Virus record (IMG/VR): IMGVR_UViG_3300028558_000024
Coordinates: 13,098-77,097 of that record
DNA length: 64,000 bases
Source: a virus
Direction: 5' to 3' (one strand)
The notes under the pieces: generated by a model
The model's input: only the letters and a program-made list of their open reading frames with translations
Databases searched by the model: none
What the model was told of the DNA's origin: nothing
In this document: positions 13,534-53,501 of the stretch, one piece after another
Layout: every line of letters starts with the position of its first letter
How positions within the stretch are numbered: the first letter of the stretch is position 1
Translations under genes and position numbers: made by a program

Positions 13534-14216
13534 CCTATTCCCTCGAAATCTCATTAGCTGCACTTTCAAAACTGCAGTCTATTGTTGAATGTCAAAAAGC
13601 TGATCAAGAGTTGTTGGCTCGAGTCTTGACGGATGCTGTCGAACATTTTGAACGGAATCGAAAAATTCCGGCGCGCAGGACTGATGTCAAACTCTTTACA
13701 CCGCCTCCAGTCGCCGGATTTCATCGTGTGCCGGTTTTAGAACCAATTGCCGACAAACCTGAGCCAATTTCTTCTGCGCCCGCGCAAGTGCCAGATGATG
13801 TCATTGTCGATGCCTGCAAAGCAATAACCGAAAAACTCGCCAAAGTTCATAAGCTTATGGATGAGCCCAAGAAGCCGGAAGAAGAAGAAGAAGAAGAAGC
13901 TTGCAAAATAAAGGATGCTGGTTTTAGAGAGTGGGAAATTAGCAAAACAGGAAAGGTTGTTGAAAAAGAAACTTCGATAAACCAAAAACCACGGAATGAC
14001 GGCTTAATGACCGGAGGGATGCTCAAACCATGCGTCAAATGCGACAAAGTCAAACCAAGCAGATGGATGGAAAGGGAAGCGAAAAAGCCCTATGCCTATT
14101 CCGGCTGGTGTTTGAATTGTTCATTCCAGCGCGATCAAATCGACGAACCGAAGAATAAAGACGGCACCCCGCGAAAGCAAATGTGTCCAGCGCCCAAACA
14201 AGGCGTTGAATTTTAG
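13530..14216 (+). CDS. hypothetical protein with C-terminal CxxC..CxxC
   Basis: ATGA overlap; Zn ribbon motif. Confidence 0.6.
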   Translation: MTYSLEISLAALSKLQSIVECQKADQELLARVLTDAVEHFERNRKIPARRTDVKLFTPPPVAGFHRVPVLEPIADKPEPISSAPAQVPDDVIVDACKAITEKLAKVHKLMDEPKKPEEEEEEEACKIKDAGFREWEISKTGKVVEKETSINQKPRNDGLMTGGMLKPCVKCDKVKPSRWMEREAKKPYAYSGWCLNCSFQRDQIDEPKNKDGTPRKQMCPAPKQGVEF

Positions 14217-50155: not shown

Positions 50156-50962
50156 GTGAAATACAGAAGTTGCATCCGATACCCCGGAGGCAAACAACGG
50201 CACTTAAAATACCTAGTCCCTTTGATGCCCAAAGGAGTCTTTGAGATGCGTGACGTTCTGTGCGGTGGAGCTTCGGTTTCACTAGCAGCGGCAAAAGAAG
50301 GCATCGCCAAACGTTACTGGCTCAACGACCTTTTCTATCCGGTTTTCAATTTCTGGCATATCGTGAGCAGACTCGGGCAAGAGCTTGTGAACGAAGTTTT
50401 CTTCATTCACGAATTGACTGACGAAAAACTGAGGGAAAGAGTCTTAGAAGGCAAAGAAAGACTACTCGCAAACAAGCCATACGACTCACTTCTTATGGCA
50501 ACTGATTTCTTTATCCTCAATCGCTGCAGCTTTTCAGGTTCAACTCTTTGCGGCGGATTGAAAGGAAAGATTCGCGAACGTTTCAACCTAAGCAACATCA
50601 CCCGAATTCTCGATTGCTATGTCGTTATGAAGGATTTCGGATTCACGGGCGTCGACTTTTCAACAGTTATTCAAAAGGGTGGCACGGAATCTTTCCTGTT
50701 TTGCGATCCGCCATATATCTCCGCTTCCAAGCTTTACGGCAATGGTGGTGATCTACACGACGACTTCGATCACCTTAAACTAGCGGAGTTGCTTCACGAA
50801 ACCGATCACAAATTCATGTTGACCTATGACGATCATTATCTGATTCGGCGCTGGTATGGCGGATTCAACATCCGCGAACTTGGCGTCACAAACTCAATGG
50901 ACAACTGCGGAAAGAGCGGGAAGCCGAAGAGAGTAAAGGAATTGGTAATTACGAATTACTGA
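50156..50962 (+). CDS. D12-class N6-adenine DNA methyltransferase
   Basis: RYPGGK; D..CGGASV; ND; NR.SFSG; DPPY; E..ITNY. Confidence 0.92.
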   Translation: MKYRSCIRYPGGKQRHLKYLVPLMPKGVFEMRDVLCGGASVSLAAAKEGIAKRYWLNDLFYPVFNFWHIVSRLGQELVNEVFFIHELTDEKLRERVLEGKERLLANKPYDSLLMATDFFILNRCSFSGSTLCGGLKGKIRERFNLSNITRILDCYVVMKDFGFTGVDFSTVIQKGGTESFLFCDPPYISASKLYGNGGDLHDDFDHLKLAELLHETDHKFMLTYDDHYLIRRWYGGFNIRELGVTNSMDNCGKSGKPKRVKELVITNY

Positions 50963-51007
50963 TGGAACGAACGATTGTTAGAAACCCAAACTGAAGGAAA
51001 AACTAAA

Positions 51008-51757
51008 ATGTCAATAAAACAACTAAACCAATTGATCGCTCTGGAAAAAGGCGTAAAGCAACGGACATACAAAGAGATTGACGCAGCATATGACTTGCTG
51101 CGAAAACCGGAAGTACTCAATGGATTTGCAAAGGAATACCAGCCGCTTGAGGAAAACGGACAAAGCTTGCCGTCCGAATCGAAGAAAGTTCAGATAACGT
51201 CCGGTGAACTCTTTGAAATTATCAAAGATCAGATGATCGAATACCTCAATATTGAAACCAGCAAGGATTTTACGAATGCTTCTGCAACCGGTGACATCAT
51301 CGCCAATGGTGTCGAGATCCAAAAGGGCGTTCCGGTTACAACATTGCTGGCATTGGAGAAACAACTTCTTGATCTGAGAACCAGTATTGAAAAAGCTGTA
51401 ACGCTTGATCCTTCGCAAGACTGGAAGTTCGACAAAGCTACTGGCTGCCAACGAACAGAACCGGTAAGAAAAGCTCGCACCAACAAGGTTCCAAAGGTAA
51501 TTACGTTGGCACCCGCTACAGACAAGCACCCCGCCCAAACACAGCTCCTTCAAGAAGATGTGATCGCAGGCTATTGGGTGCAAACGGAAATTTCTGGAGC
51601 ACTTGAAGCACCGACAAAACGCAACTACATTGAAAGAGTGAATGATCTTCTTGATGCAGTGAAAGCCGCACGGGAACAAGCAAACAGCACGGAAATTAAA
51701 AGGTTCGAATTCGCTGAGAAGATGTTGAATTACGTCTTCGCTGGTGATAAAGTCTAA
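51008..51757 (+). CDS. uncharacterised helical protein (LNQLIALEKGVK type) directly upstream of a tRNA-mimic RNA
   Basis: GAAGGA RBS; motifs Y.P..E.G..LP.E.K.VQ, VP...LL.LEKQL, A.ATDKHPAQ, SGA, AVK.ARE.AN. Confidence 0.8.
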   Translation: MSIKQLNQLIALEKGVKQRTYKEIDAAYDLLRKPEVLNGFAKEYQPLEENGQSLPSESKKVQITSGELFEIIKDQMIEYLNIETSKDFTNASATGDIIANGVEIQKGVPVTTLLALEKQLLDLRTSIEKAVTLDPSQDWKFDKATGCQRTEPVRKARTNKVPKVITLAPATDKHPAQTQLLQEDVIAGYWVQTEISGALEAPTKRNYIERVNDLLDAVKAAREQANSTEIKRFEFAEKMLNYVFAGDKV

Positions 51758-51759
51758 GT

Positions 51760-52187
51760 ACGGAAACGAAGTTCAAACTTAAATTCAAGATGAAAGCGAA
51801 GTCGGTTTGATGCAGGTGCGAATCCTGCTCGGGGCTCCAATATGCCCCGGTAGCCCAACAGTCGAGGCGACCGACGAGCAAAAAGAAAATCAACTTATTT
51901 CCTAAGTTGATTGCTGAAAGCAAGGTGTCTCAAGCACCACTGCAAATCACTGGAAGATTTCGGTTCAAATCCGAACTCGGGCGCCATGCCTGGGTAGCTT
52001 AATGGCAGAGCATCCTTTCTTAGACCTAAAGCAGTGGTTTAAACGTCGTCACCACGCGAAGAAAACAGCATAAAAGCATATAGCTCAATAGTAGAGCGAT
52101 TGACTTGTAATCAATTTGTTCTGGGTGCGATTCCCAGTATGCAAAATAAATACCGGGGGCGTCTCAGGCTACGAGGCGCCTCCACCA
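51760..52187 (+). ncRNA. large structured RNA built from tRNA-like modules (boundaries approximate)
   Basis: permuted T-acceptor-D modules at 51801-51875 and 51952-52015; cloverleaf 52076-52142; minihelix-ACCA 52155-52187; enclosing helix 51936-43/52031-38. Confidence 0.75.
52076..52142 (+). tRNA. tRNA-Thr(TGT)-like cloverleaf with 5-bp acceptor stem and no CCA
   Basis: GCATA-TA-GCTC/GAGC D arm, ATTGA-CTTGTAA-TCAAT, CTGGG-TGCGATT-CCCAG, TATGC. Confidence 0.65.
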
Positions 52188-52201
52188 TTTAGTAATTACT
52201 T

Positions 52202-52230
52202 TTGCCATAAACGACTTCACGCGGTAACTT
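52202..52230 (+). promoter_or_regulatory. sigma70-like promoter for downstream tRNA-Met mimic
   Basis: TTGCCA-17 nt-TAACTT, 5 nt before element start. Confidence 0.5.
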
Positions 52231-52235
52231 CTAGT

Positions 52236-52299
52236 CAGCCAAGCGTGGAGGGGCTCAGCCTCATAACCTGAGCCCGAGCGTTCGAATCGTCCTTGGTTG
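52236..52299 (+). ncRNA. D-armless tRNA-Met(CAT)-like RNA
   Basis: CAGCCAAG/CTTGGTTG closing stem; GGGCTCAG/CTGAGCCC stem with CTCATAA loop; TTCGAAT T loop. Confidence 0.55.
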
Positions 52300-52349
52300 T
52301 CGAGAAATCGGGTAGCGGTCCCAGCCGAGCCTGCACCGACTTAGTCAAT

Positions 52350-52390
52350 AAAACACTTCATCGCCTGCACGGGATGAGGTGTTTTTGTTT
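52350..52390 (+). terminator. intrinsic, possibly bidirectional terminator
   Basis: AAAACACTTCATC...GATGAGGTGTTTTTGTTT. Confidence 0.65.
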
Positions 52391-52646
52391 TGCGGCGAAA
52401 AACTTACTTTTGCAATCCTCCTGGGCCCAAAACAAAATCAAATTACCCCCCAAACCGAAAGACGTTATTGCAGGTAAGAGATTTTGAAAACTGAAGTATC
52501 AGGAAAAGTTGTCGAGCATGAATTGACTGCAAAGGTCATCAGAGCAGACGGAACGATTGAGAAGGAAATTCTCGTCGGGTACTTCGGACCACATTTGAGA
52601 AAACACCTTATCTGCATTTGGAATAACCTCTTGAGGGCTATTAAGA

Positions 52647-53072
52647 ATGGCAGACGTACTAACTAACGCCGGACTGGCGATTGTAACCAACCGCATAATC
52701 GGCTCCGGCACGGAACCGAAATATGCCTCATGGGGCACGGCGGCCGGTACTGCTGCTGTCGGCAACACGACTCTCTTTACCGAGGCCATGTCGACTCAAA
52801 ACGACGGCTCCTCGCACAACAACCGAGTATCTGGCACCTCTTCAAGAGTTACAGGATCACAGACAAACGACACCTATCAAGTAGTGGCTACCTTGACTGC
52901 TGATGCTGGCAAAACAATCACAAACGCTGGTTTGTTTGACTCTGACGGATTGGCCGCTGACCTCGTGACTGCTCCGGCAGGCGGCAATTTGTTCGTCAAA
53001 TCCGACTTCACCGGCATTGCCTTAAATACCGGCGATGCAATTCAGTTCACCTTCAAGACCCGCTTCAGTTAA
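52647..53072 (+). CDS. tail-fibre/collar-like structural protein
   Basis: LTNAG...GT......T.L..E...I.NAGLFD pattern of fibre N-terminal domains. Confidence 0.6.
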   Translation: MADVLTNAGLAIVTNRIIGSGTEPKYASWGTAAGTAAVGNTTLFTEAMSTQNDGSSHNNRVSGTSSRVTGSQTNDTYQVVATLTADAGKTITNAGLFDSDGLAADLVTAPAGGNLFVKSDFTGIALNTGDAIQFTFKTRFS

Positions 53073-53087
53073 GGATTATTCGCTCAA

Positions 53088-53501
53088 ATGACATTAGGCG
53101 ACACAACCGAAAACGACATCGTTAAGTACATATTCAATTCCGTTTCGATGCCCAACTATGGCTCGGGCGATTTGTATGTGAGTTTGCATACGGCCGATCC
53201 TGGTGAAGCCGGAAACCAGCAAACAAGCGAGGCGACATATACAAGTTATGCCCGAGTTTTGGTGACTCGCACTGGGACCGGTTCTTGGACTGTATCGGCA
53301 AACCAGGCGTCGAATACTGCGGCGGTAACTTTCCCGACAGCGACAGGCGGATCAAACGTCATAACGCACGTCGCAATCGGAACAGTGATCAGCGCGACTG
53401 GACAGATTATTGGCTCGGCTGCATTGCAAGCGCCGATAACGGTCGTCAACGGAATCGCGCCGAAATTCGCTATTGGCCAATTGATCTTCAATCTGGACTA
53501 A
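53088..53501 (+). CDS. phage fibre-associated structural protein
   Basis: LYVSLHTADPGEAG...E..Y..YARV...N...V.FP.ATG. Confidence 0.65.
   Translation: MTLGDTTENDIVKYIFNSVSMPNYGSGDLYVSLHTADPGEAGNQQTSEATYTSYARVLVTRTGTGSWTVSANQASNTAAVTFPTATGGSNVITHVAIGTVISATGQIIGSAALQAPITVVNGIAPKFAIGQLIFNLD

What the first reader, a model, noticed from the sequence alone, without database searches (positions are those of the whole stretch)
51760..51810. Exact 6-nt periodic AAR tract at the RNA 5' end
Seen: AAG/AAA at 51769, 51775, 51781, 51787, 51793 and 51799, with variable 3-nt spacers. One frame reads TETKFKLKFKMKAKSV-stop with no start codon upstream of the tract. Inference: either a single-stranded array bound by an oligomer of the upstream protein (one subunit per hexamer), or a tmRNA-like internal reading frame encoding an alternating Lys/hydrophobic tag.
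Basis: partly seen in the sequence, partly recalled or inferred. Interest (0 to 1): 0.7.

Follow-up and report, generated by a model that had tools for sequence, protein, structure and literature searches.

The report
Six-base repeat leader of phage tRNA-mimic RNA
The six-base-spaced AAR tract is a real, untranslated and widely conserved part of a folded RNA (a back-to-front tRNA look-alike) that follows an unstudied gene, DUF7873, in many phages and bacteria, and it is probably where a protein docks on that RNA.

Summary
Observation confirmed. AAG/AAA sits at 51769, 51775, 51781, 51787, 51793 and 51799. It is the only such run in the window, with none in 100 shuffles.

The tract is not a peptide tag. 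It is the window's version of a conserved hexamer array, A-R-R-Y-U-N, usually four units. In relatives the array starts 29-62 nt (mostly 33-52) upstream of the T-arm of a YrlA-like tRNA mimic. That mimic follows DUF7873 genes in 76 of 82 phage loci and 72 of 80 bacterial loci.

- **Constraint is on nucleotides.** 'Arg' codons in the array are AGR 25 : CGN 1, against 164 : 1244 in the adjacent genes. There is no conserved start or stop.
- **Pairing in relatives.** Hexamer 1, probably hexamer 2, and the GAGC just upstream covary with the linker after the tRNA-like core. Hexamers 3-4 keep their A and U without a covarying partner.
- **In this window** the tract is predicted mostly unpaired.
- **Second array.** Another in-phase AAR run covers the gene's own ribosome-binding site. 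Apart from a coding (AAG)7 repeat, these are the only such runs in the 77-kb record.

Best reading: an RNA-level docking platform, most plausibly for DUF7873, with possible feedback. Binding is untested. This scan has noted the same motif before on other DNA.

The parts
50982..51011 (+). Second in-phase AAR array (AAACCC AAACTG AAGGAA AAACTA AAATGT) covering the Shine-Dalgarno sequence and start codon of the DUF7873 gene
   Evidence: Besides the finding and a coding (AAG)7, it is the only run of four or more in-phase AAR in the window and in the whole 77-kb record. It is predicted unpaired. In-phase motif pairs are enriched upstream of DUF7873 genes: 12/56 against 18/513 other genes.
51008..51757 (+). 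DUF7873 gene (249 aa), the only protein gene that travels with the RNA
   Evidence: Pfam PF25283, E 8e-81. 1116 homologues. No other conserved neighbour in 82 loci. AF2 model pLDDT 88.7 with no significant fold match.
51763..51766 (+). GAAA, the window's counterpart of the family's GAGC box just 5' of the array; it could pair with UUUC 51898-51901
   Evidence: In relatives GAGC covaries with GCUC of the linker: 4 Watson-Crick types, z 6.0, 5.6 and 3.3. The assignment in the window is by analogy only.
51769..51804 (+). The finding: six AAR-NNN hexamers. The first four (51769-51792, AAGTTC AAACTT AAATTC AAGATG) fit the family consensus A-R-R-N-T-N. The last two (AAAGCG AAGTCG) are particular to this phage and run into the closing stem.
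   Evidence: Aligned without gaps to the array of 17 relatives by a covariance model built without the window (69.7 bits, E 7e-15). Family statistics.
51801..51807 (+). 5' strand (GUCGGUU) of the stem that closes the tRNA-like core; pairs with 51869-51875 (GACCGAC)
   Evidence: MFE and centroid fold; 6 Watson-Crick pairs plus 1 G-U read from the sequence.
51812..51828 (+). T-arm of module 1 (GCAGG UGCGAAU CCUGC)
   Evidence: Rfam YrlA alignment. RNAalifold finds compensatory changes in relatives. Own covariance model.
51829..51850 (+). Closed 7-bp acceptor-like hairpin UCGGGGC-UCCAAUAU-GCCCCGG, whose loop begins with N-CCA
   Evidence: The loop starts with N-CCA in 58 of 114 non-redundant modules.
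51853..51868 (+). D-arm-like stem-loop (GCCCAACAGUCGAGGC)
51869..51875 (+). 3' strand of the closing stem
51876..51921 (+). A-rich linker between the two modules, again phased in hexamers (AAAAAG AAAAUC AACUUA UUUCCU AAGUUG AUUGCU). It holds the local hairpin 51888-51896/51904-51912 (-8.0 kcal/mol). It also holds the window's degenerate copy of the family's UNAGCAU box (UUGAUU 51907-12), which could instead pair with hexamers 1-2.
   Evidence: Homology to the family linker in alignment A2.
51959..52011 (+). Module 2: second closed-acceptor tRNA mimic (T-arm, CUCGGGC-GCCAU-GCCUGGG, D-arm), followed by the family's UUAAACG motif at 52037-52048
   Evidence: Own covariance model, 34 bits, E 2e-6.
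52074..52145 (+). tRNA-Thr(UGU), standard cloverleaf, in the same non-coding stretch
   Evidence: ARAGORN; Rfam tRNA 56.8 bits.
52354..52392 (+). Terminator-like hairpin (CACTTCATC / GATGAGGTG) followed by a T run; probable end of the gene-plus-RNA transcription unit
   Evidence: Read from the sequence. The consensus scan did not list it, probably because its loop is 10-11 nt.

Best explanation
The tract is the untranslated, hexamer-phased leader of the first tRNA-mimic domain of a non-coding RNA that is probably co-transcribed with the DUF7873 gene. It is this phage's version of a family-wide array, A-R-R-Y-U-N x4, here extended to six AAR units, which abuts the stem that closes the tRNA-like core.

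Shown:
- The array is conserved in sequence, phase and position across phages and bacteria, at the nucleotide level.
- In relatives the Y-U-N-A tetrad of hexamer 1, and probably hexamer 2, pairs with U-N-A-R tetrads of the linker 3' of the core.
- In relatives the GAGC just upstream of the array pairs with GCUC of the linker.
- Hexamers 3-4 keep A1 and U5 without a covarying partner.

In this window the whole tract is predicted mostly unpaired and faces an equally A-rich 3' strand.

Inferred: the array, with its stem and purine-rich loop, is the docking platform of the RNA for a protein. This would play the role that the Ro60-binding stem and loop play in Y RNAs. The most plausible partner is DUF7873, the only gene that travels with the RNA. 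The second array over the gene's ribosome-binding site would let the same protein limit its own translation.
For: Identity and homology:
- YrlA-like core just 3' of the tract.
- A covariance model built from 17 relatives, without the window, hits 51750-51878 at 69.7 bits (E 7e-15) and aligns the array without gaps.
- Closed-acceptor modules follow DUF7873 genes in 76/82 phage loci, against 3 elsewhere in those loci, and in 72/80 bacterial loci.

Periodicity is conserved:
- Runs of three or more hexamers occur in 21/66 leaders against 10/5000 control windows.
- In hexamers 3, 4 and 5, which were not conditioned on, A at position 1 is 86%, 82% and 79%. T at position 5 is 72% and 79%, then lost.

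Nucleotide-level, not peptide-level:
- AGR 25: CGN 1 in the array against 164: 1244 in the adjacent ORFs, p 5e-22.

Pairing of the first hexamers:
- N6 of hexamer 1 forms a Watson-Crick pair with the linker box in 46/58 loci (G-C 34, C-G 9, U-A 3). Permutations give 29.3 +/- 2.7, with 0 of 2000 reaching 46.
- GAGC/GCUC and hexamer 2 also covary.
- Hexamers 3-4 do not: their N6 is unpaired in 7/13 and 10/13 sequences.

This window:
- Tract-to-linker complementarity is no better than shuffles (z -0.26).

Link to the gene:
- Apart from a coding (AAG)7 repeat, the only runs of four or more in-phase AAR in the 77-kb record lie on the gene's ribosome-binding site and just after its stop.
- The motif is enriched upstream of DUF7873 starts: 12/56 against 18/513, p 6e-6.
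- No other conserved neighbour gene.
- YrlA-like RNAs beside a TROVE gene in a jumbo phage that also carries the DUF7873 cassette showed no such arrays on visual inspection.
Against: - No binding, transcript or processing data exist.
- DUF7873 is mildly acidic (pI 5.5) and has no recognisable RNA-binding fold.
- The array near the ribosome-binding site occurs in only about a fifth of loci, and A-rich ribosome-binding sites are common.
- Much of the array can be explained by base pairing alone in many relatives. Own duplex energy is -16.3 against -11.9 kcal/mol for shuffles, with z below -2 in 10/44 loci.
- My covariation tests do not correct for relatedness.
- In the window the helix analogue (51771-81 with 51903-12) is about 7.5 kcal/mol worse than the competing local hairpin. 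The window's fold is therefore uncertain either way.
Confidence: 0.5

Rival explanations
1. Purely structural element. The array is only the 5' strand of the long imperfect basal helix of a Y-RNA-like molecule. The 6-nt period reflects 4-bp segments (Y-U-N-A with U-N-A-R) separated by purine-rich 2x2 internal loops, with no sequence-specific protein contact.
For: - MFE folds pair the array with the linker in many relatives.
- Own duplex energy beats shuffled and foreign partners.
- Hexamers 1 and 2 and GAGC/GCUC covary with the linker.
- The linker is itself hexamer-phased (UCAGAC UCAGAU UCUCGC) in actinobacterial loci.
Against: - A1, R2 and U5 stay fixed across phyla instead of covarying to G-C.
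- Hexamers 3-4 lack a consistent partner.
- 10 of 44 loci, the window among them, show no excess complementarity.
- The same motif recurs at ribosome-binding sites, where no partner strand is evident.
Confidence: 0.27
2. Fully single-stranded track bound by a DUF7873 oligomer, one subunit per hexamer, in the manner of TRAP or Cas7.
For: - Strict 6-nt phase and a near-constant number of units (four).
- Predicted unpaired in this window.
- Array over the gene's ribosome-binding site.
Against: - Hexamers 1-2 are base-paired in relatives.
- The protein is acidic and shows no oligomeric or RNA-binding fold match. The Cas7 rows in Foldseek have TM about 0.1, which is noise.
- Oligomer prediction could not be run.
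Confidence: 0.12
3. tmRNA-like internal reading frame encoding an alternating Lys/hydrophobic tag, with translation resuming on the tRNA-like RNA.
For: - The frame *SLSTETKFKLKFKMKAKSV* is open and ends just before the T-arm.
- Relatives read (K/R)(L/F) repeats in the same frame.
- N-CCA follows the acceptor 3' strand.
Against: - AGR 25: CGN 1 in the array against 12% AGR in the adjacent genes.
- An in-frame stop before the T-arm in only 13/44 loci; in the rest the frame runs on past the T-arm start into the structured tRNA-like core.
- No tmRNA found by ARAGORN or Rfam.
- C3-G70 instead of G3-U70 in both acceptor stems.
- The tract lies 5' of the T-arm, not 3' of the acceptor 5' strand as in permuted tmRNA genes.
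Confidence: 0.02
4. A signal of another kind: an RNase E or other processing site, an S1/ribosome standby site, or a DNA-level protein-binding repeat that controls transcription of the RNA.
For: - A/U-rich unpaired sequence next to structured RNA is typical of processing sites.
- The core pentamer A-R-N-Y-T is its own reverse-complement class, so a DNA site cannot be excluded on symmetry alone.
Against: - The array keeps its distance to the T-arm (mostly 33-52 nt), not to the gene end (stop-to-T-arm distance +41 to +609).
- It is conserved across hosts of many phyla with different promoters.
- Position 3 is strand-specific, R in 71-98%.
- Processing sites are not known to need four phased copies.
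- No promoter-like site in the region.
Confidence: 0.08

Closest known systems
YrlA-type bacterial and phage Y RNAs with Ro60/Rsr (Rfam RF02553; Chen et al. 2014, PMC4201824)
   Same: Back-to-front tRNA mimic: T-arm, acceptor-like stem closed by a loop, D-arm and no anticodon loop. The 5' and 3' flanks form a stem and loop that serves as a protein platform. The RNAs come in tandem next to the partner's gene and are also found in phages.
   Different: - Scores 29.6 bits against the family's gathering score of 69.
- The Ro60-binding motif GNCGAAN0-1G is not enriched: 4/109 against a 2.8% background.
- No TROVE gene in the 77-kb record, and none in 3 of 5 complete relatives.
- The constant neighbour is DUF7873.
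- On visual inspection, TROVE-adjacent YrlA-like RNAs in a phage that carries both systems show no hexamer arrays.
Mycobacterium smegmatis YrlA (PMC4201824)
   Same: A 7-bp acceptor-like stem. That RNA is cut by RNase P and receives CCA. Here N-CCA is already encoded at the start of the closing loop in both window modules and in 58/114 modules of relatives.
   Different: Processing is not shown here. The partner and the flanks differ.
TRAP with the trp leader, and Cas7 backbones on crRNA (my own knowledge, not tested here)
   Same: Short RNA motifs repeated at a fixed 5-6-nt spacing and read by one protein subunit per repeat.
   Different: No fold similarity of DUF7873 to either: the Foldseek rows to Cas7 have TM about 0.1. 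Only four units are present, and the first one or two are base-paired in relatives.
Two-piece (circularly permuted) tmRNA
   Same: The gene order T-arm, acceptor 3' strand, CCA, short spacer, acceptor 5' strand looks like a permuted ssrA gene.
   Different: No tag frame under amino-acid constraint, no G3-U70, no pseudoknot series, and no hit by ARAGORN or Rfam.

Membership tests
YrlA / Y RNA-like (Rfam RF02553) | Covariance-model score at or above the curated gathering score (69 bits) | tested here: not met
   29.6 bits, E 0.0011, at 51787-51899.
YrlA / Y RNA-like (Rfam RF02553) | tRNA-like domain: T-arm, acceptor-like stem closed by a loop, D-arm | tested here: met
   (12 of 16 pairs have compensatory changes in relatives).
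YrlA / Y RNA-like (Rfam RF02553) | Conserved 5'-strand Ro60-binding motif GNCGAAN0-1G (PMC4201824) | tested here: not met
   The window has AGCGAAG, a 6 of 7 match. Strict motif found in 4/109 modules against a 2.8% background.
YrlA / Y RNA-like (Rfam RF02553) | Encoded next to a Ro60/TROVE gene | tested here: not met
   No TROVE in the 77-kb record, which is 68% complete. No conserved neighbour other than DUF7873. TROVE is present in 2 of 5 complete relatives, but 25-60 kb from the cassette.
YrlA / Y RNA-like (Rfam RF02553) | Long stem formed by the 5' and 3' flanks, with a large internal loop | tested here: inconclusive
   Supported in relatives. In the window the analogous helix is 7.5 kcal/mol worse than a local hairpin.
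tmRNA (one-piece or permuted) | Recognised by ARAGORN or by the Rfam tmRNA models | tested here: not met
   no tmRNA hit at E up to 1 in 50500-53500.
tmRNA (one-piece or permuted) | Tag reading frame under amino-acid constraint, closed by a stop | tested here: not met
   A stop before the T-arm in 13/44 loci. AGR 25: CGN 1 against 164: 1244 in the genes.
tmRNA (one-piece or permuted) | G3-U70 alanine identity pair in the acceptor stem | tested here: not met
   Both modules have C3-G70, read from the sequence.
DUF7873-associated tRNA-mimic RNA (not in Rfam; recurrent in this scan) | Lies directly downstream of a DUF7873 (PF25283) gene on the same strand | tested here: met
DUF7873-associated tRNA-mimic RNA (not in Rfam; recurrent in this scan) | Matches a covariance model built from relatives without the window | tested here: met
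   R1: 69.7 bits, E 7e-15, full length, with the array aligned without gaps.
DUF7873-associated tRNA-mimic RNA (not in Rfam; recurrent in this scan) | A-R-R-Y-U-N array of about four units starting mostly 33-52 nt before the T-arm of module 1 | tested here: met
   The window's array starts 43 nt before the T-arm; four units fit the consensus.
DUF7873-associated tRNA-mimic RNA (not in Rfam; recurrent in this scan) | Linker box UNAGCAU pairing with hexamer 1 | tested here: inconclusive
   The window's box is degenerate (UUGAUUG). Reading 51771-51776 against 51907-51912 by eye, 4 Watson-Crick pairs plus 1 G-U of 6 are still possible, and the position that covaries in relatives is paired here (C51774-G51909); the duplex is weak. 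The window was not scored in the family test.
Periodic RNA track read by a protein oligomer (TRAP-like or Cas7-like) | Partner protein with a known oligomeric RNA-binding fold | tested here: inconclusive
   No significant fold match.

The most novel reading that the evidence does not exclude
DUF7873 assembles on the A-R-R-Y-U-N array in a 6-nt register. Together with two CCA-ended tRNA-mimic heads it would form a Ro60-independent ribonucleoprotein particle. The same protein would bind the look-alike array over its own ribosome-binding site to set its level.
Probability: 0.3. Interest if true: 0.8.

Novelty: new variant of a known kind. Interest (0 to 1): 0.6.

Why it matters
Y-RNA-like tRNA mimics are known only as partners of Ro60. 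Here the same RNA shape travels with a different, unstudied protein across many phages and several bacterial phyla. It carries a phased hexamer motif that Ro60-type Y RNAs lack.

The motif is the most specific handle on how this RNA is recognised. It gives precise mutations to test: A1, U5 and the 6-nt phase. It separates a paired part from an apparently unpaired part. Its copy on the gene's ribosome-binding site suggests a simple feedback loop that can be tested.

The analysis also removes an attractive but wrong idea, a phage tmRNA-like tagging system.

Tried and rejected
- **Closer relatives.** A pattern scan of viral contigs for the window's module found nothing. The metagenome scan gave relatives of 50% identity or less.
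- **Expression.** No RNA holder was listed among the public runs. Four rhizosphere DNA runs were laid and showed the same strain, with one low-depth difference at 51792.
- **Protein fold.** Foldseek against PDB, VIA-align wide, BFVD and the ESM Atlas gave no convincing relative. The Cas7/RAMP rows in Foldseek (TM about 0.1) were treated as noise. The best VIA rows (Z up to 8.6) are generic helical bundles.
- **Literature.** 'DUF7873' gives 0 papers. A 2026 preprint on bacterial tRNA mimics concerns other RNAs.
- **Ro60 motif.** GNCGAAN0-1G is not enriched.
- **Promoter scan.** No site found.
- **RNAalifold on MAFFT alignments.** It recovers only the tRNA-like core and the hexamer-1 helix.
- **Sense versus antisense motif counts.** These proved uninformative, because A-R-N-Y-U is its own reverse-complement class.
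- **Chance.** Rejected.
- **Read-through or frameshift from DUF7873 into the KFKL frame.** Rejected: that frame has a TAA three codons before the gene's stop codon, and the array lies 40 to over 500 nt from the gene end in relatives.

Full report
**1. The observation**

The sequence has AAG/AAA at 51769, 51775, 51781, 51787, 51793 and 51799, separated by TTC, CTT, TTC, ATG and GCG. The pattern (AARNNN)5AAR occurs once in the window on both strands and never in 100 dinucleotide-preserving shuffles. Block shuffles expect 0.005 such runs. The frame reads *SLSTETKFKLKFKMKAKSV* with no start codon before the tract.

**2. Where the tract sits**

The tract begins 12 nt after the stop codon of a 249-aa gene (51008-51757) that belongs to Pfam DUF7873 (E 8e-81). 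It ends in the first base of a 7-bp stem (51801-07 with 51869-75). That stem encloses three elements:
- a T-arm (51812-28);
- a 7-bp acceptor-like hairpin closed by the loop UCCAAUAU (51829-50);
- a D-arm (51853-68).

Rfam's nearest family is YrlA, the Y-RNA-like tRNA mimic, but the score is only 29.6 bits against a gathering score of 69. The fold has a z-score of -3.2.

Further downstream lie a second module of the same kind (51959-52011), a normal tRNA-Thr (52074-52145), a D-armless tRNA-like element and a terminator-like hairpin. The window is part of a 77-kb phage record from rhizosphere metagenomes.

**3. The cassette is conserved**

DUF7873 has more than 1000 homologues. My scan looked for a T-arm followed at once by a closed 7-bp hairpin.
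- It finds such modules within 1.2 kb downstream of the gene in 76 of 82 phage loci. That is 129 modules, usually two about 150 nt apart, against 3 anywhere else in those loci.
- It finds them in 72 of 80 bacterial loci, from Nonomuraea, Nocardia, Streptomyces, Myxococcus, Herpetosiphon, Acidobacteria and others.

No other protein gene is conserved beside it. The closing loop begins with N-CCA in 58 of 114 modules, including both in the window. This recalls M. smegmatis YrlA, which is cut by RNase P and receives CCA (PMC4201824).

No TROVE/Ro60 gene is present in the record. Three of five complete relatives lack one, and in the other two it lies 25-60 kb from the cassette.

**4.

Upstream of module 1 the relatives carry arrays such as:
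- AAGCTC AAGCTC AAGCTC AAACTG;
- AAGCTG AAGTTG AGACTG AAGCTG;
- AAGTTT AAATTT AAACTT AGATTT;
- in actinomycetes, AAGCTG AAGCTC AGGCTG AAGCTG.

Runs of three or more A-R-[AGC]-N-T-N hexamers occur in 21 of 66 non-redundant leaders, against 10 of 5000 control windows. Runs of two or more occur in 55 of 66, against 7%.

I fixed the phase on hexamers 1-2 only and read the next hexamers without conditions. A at position 1 is then 86%, 82% and 79% in hexamers 3, 4 and 5. T at position 5 is 72% and 79% in hexamers 3 and 4 and is then lost (71 loci). The canonical array is therefore four hexamers plus one A. It starts mostly 33-52 nt before the T-arm (range 29-62).

The window fits this: AAGTTC AAACTT AAATTC AAGATG, then two further AAR units of its own. 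A covariance model built from 17 relatives without the window finds 51750-51878 at 69.7 bits (E 7e-15). It aligns the tract to the family array without a gap.

**5. Not a peptide**

Four results speak against translation.
- At the 'basic' positions of hexamers 3-5, AGR outnumbers CGN 25 to 1. The adjacent DUF7873 genes of the same loci use AGR 164 times and CGN 1244 times (Fisher p 5e-22). What is kept is the A, not the arginine.
- Only 13 of 44 loci have an in-frame stop before the T-arm. Only 15 of 44 have any upstream in-frame start. In the rest the frame runs on past the T-arm start into the structured tRNA-like core.
- ARAGORN and Rfam find no tmRNA.
- Both acceptor stems have C3-G70 rather than the alanine identity pair.

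**6. Paired or unpaired?**

Both, in different parts.

In many relatives the MFE fold pairs the array with the conserved linker 3' of the core (..UUCAGAUUCUCGCUCCAGNNUCAGCAUYGCC..). Duplex energy with the locus's own linker averages -16.3 kcal/mol. Foreign linkers give -13.0 and shuffled own linkers -11.9. The excess is uneven, however: z is below -2 in 10 of 44 loci, below -1 in 21, and above 0 in 10.

Direct covariation is clear for hexamer 1. Its variable sixth base forms a Watson-Crick pair with the variable base of the linker box U-N-A-G-C-A-U in 46 of 58 loci (G-C 34, C-G 9, U-A 3). Permutation gives 29.3 +/- 2.7, and none of 2000 permutations reaches 46.

An unbiased scan of all position pairs adds two more signals:
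- GAGC just 5' of the array pairs with GCUC of the linker, with four Watson-Crick types and z up to 6.0. The arrangement crosses the hexamer-1 helix, as in a pseudoknot.
- The junction of hexamers 2 and 3 pairs with UCAG of the linker (z 4.3 and 3.8).

Hexamers 3-4 show no such partner. In a clean actinobacterial alignment their sixth base is unpaired in 7 of 13 and 10 of 13 sequences. The hexamer 1-2 helix in the same alignment is 93% paired.

These tests do not correct for relatedness. The several pair types argue that the helices are real.

**7. This window**

The tract has no more complementarity to its linker than shuffles have, and it is predicted mostly unpaired. The linker folds on itself instead (51888-96 with 51904-12, -8.0 kcal/mol).

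An analogue of the family helix can still be drawn: 51771-81 with 51903-12, and GAAA 51763-66 with UUUC 51898-901. Both positions that covary in relatives are Watson-Crick paired in it. It costs about 7.5 kcal/mol more than the hairpin fold.

The last four AAR units face an equally A-rich 3' strand (51876-51890), which would form a large purine-rich internal loop.

**8. Link to the gene**

In the whole 77-kb record only three places have four or more in-phase AAR:
- a coding (AAG)7;
- the tract itself;
- 50982-51011 (AAACCC AAACTG AAGGAA AAACTA AAATGT), which covers the Shine-Dalgarno sequence and the ATG of the DUF7873 gene.

In-phase motif pairs lie within 42 nt upstream of 12 of 56 DUF7873 starts, against 18 of 513 other genes with a Shine-Dalgarno sequence in the same loci (odds ratio 7.5, p 6e-6). 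This lead came from earlier notes of this scan, and I tested it here.

In a jumbo phage that has both a TROVE gene and the DUF7873 cassette, the YrlA-like RNAs next to TROVE have quite different flanks (GAUGGUGUAGG .. UGUUCCUCG) and, by eye, no hexamer arrays. The Ro60-binding motif GNCGAAN0-1G is not enriched in the DUF7873-type RNAs.

**9. Interpretation**

The tract is an RNA-level element of an RNA family that is not in Rfam and that I found in no paper. Its first hexamers help to build the basal helix or pseudoknot. Its later hexamers keep their sequence and phase without a pairing partner.

The best explanation is a docking platform for a protein, most plausibly DUF7873, with a look-alike site on the gene's ribosome-binding site for feedback.

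This last step is inference. The protein is mildly acidic (pI 5.5) and has a confident model (pLDDT 88.7) with no informative fold match. The main rival is that the array is only a helix strand.

**10. Relation to earlier notes**

This scan has noted the same cassette and the same hexamer motif on other DNA several times. My results agree on the motif and on the site near the ribosome-binding site. They differ from the description 'apparently unpaired': hexamers 1-2 covary with the linker.

Noticed in passing
window 51829-51850 and 51976-51994: Both closed acceptor-like hairpins carry N-CCA right after the 3' strand (UCGGGGC-U-CCA..., CUCGGGC-G-CCA...), as do 58 of 114 modules in relatives. 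Cleavage in the loop would leave a two-piece tRNA-like RNA with a genuine CCA end.
   Followed up: partly
window 51897-51903 versus 50995-51000: The loop AUUUCCU of the linker hairpin contains UUUCCU, which is complementary to AGGAAA in the Shine-Dalgarno region of the DUF7873 gene. The homologous linker stretch in relatives is UCGCUCC, which contains CUCC, also anti-Shine-Dalgarno-like. This may be chance.
   Followed up: no
window 51888-51896 versus 51771-51781: AAUCAACUU in the linker is a near copy of GUUCAAACUU in the tract. Both can pair with AAGUUGAUU (51904-12), so the two could compete for it as a switch.
   Followed up: partly
window 52037-52048: GTTTAAACGTCG lies 3' of module 2. A TTAAACG(Y)C motif recurs at the same place after module 2 in most relatives.
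   Followed up: no
window 52236-52299: tRNA-like element without a D-arm: 8-bp closing stem CAGCCAAG/CTTGGTTG, long stem with a CTCATAA loop (CAU), and a TTCGAAT T-loop. ARAGORN does not call it.
   Followed up: no
L183 2740-3200 (jumbo phage G002, near its TROVE gene): This phage carries both a TROVE/Ro60 gene with YrlA-like RNAs (42.9 and 33.1 bits), whose repeated flanks are GATGGTGTAGG..GTTACTTC, and, 60 kb away, the DUF7873 cassette (L046). The two systems therefore coexist rather than replace each other.
   Followed up: partly
relatives: linker 3' of module 1 (e.g. L104 2406-2440): GAGC just 5' of the array covaries with GCUC of the linker in an order that crosses the hexamer-1 helix. 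This points to a pseudoknot at the base of the tRNA-like domain.
   Followed up: partly
window 51792: One rhizosphere run has T instead of G (AAGATG to AAGATT) at the free sixth position of hexamer 4. Depth is 2.6 in a single contig, so it may be an error.
   Followed up: no
window 13879-13902: An (AAG)7 trinucleotide repeat inside a coding region. It is the only other long in-phase AAR run in the record.
   Followed up: no
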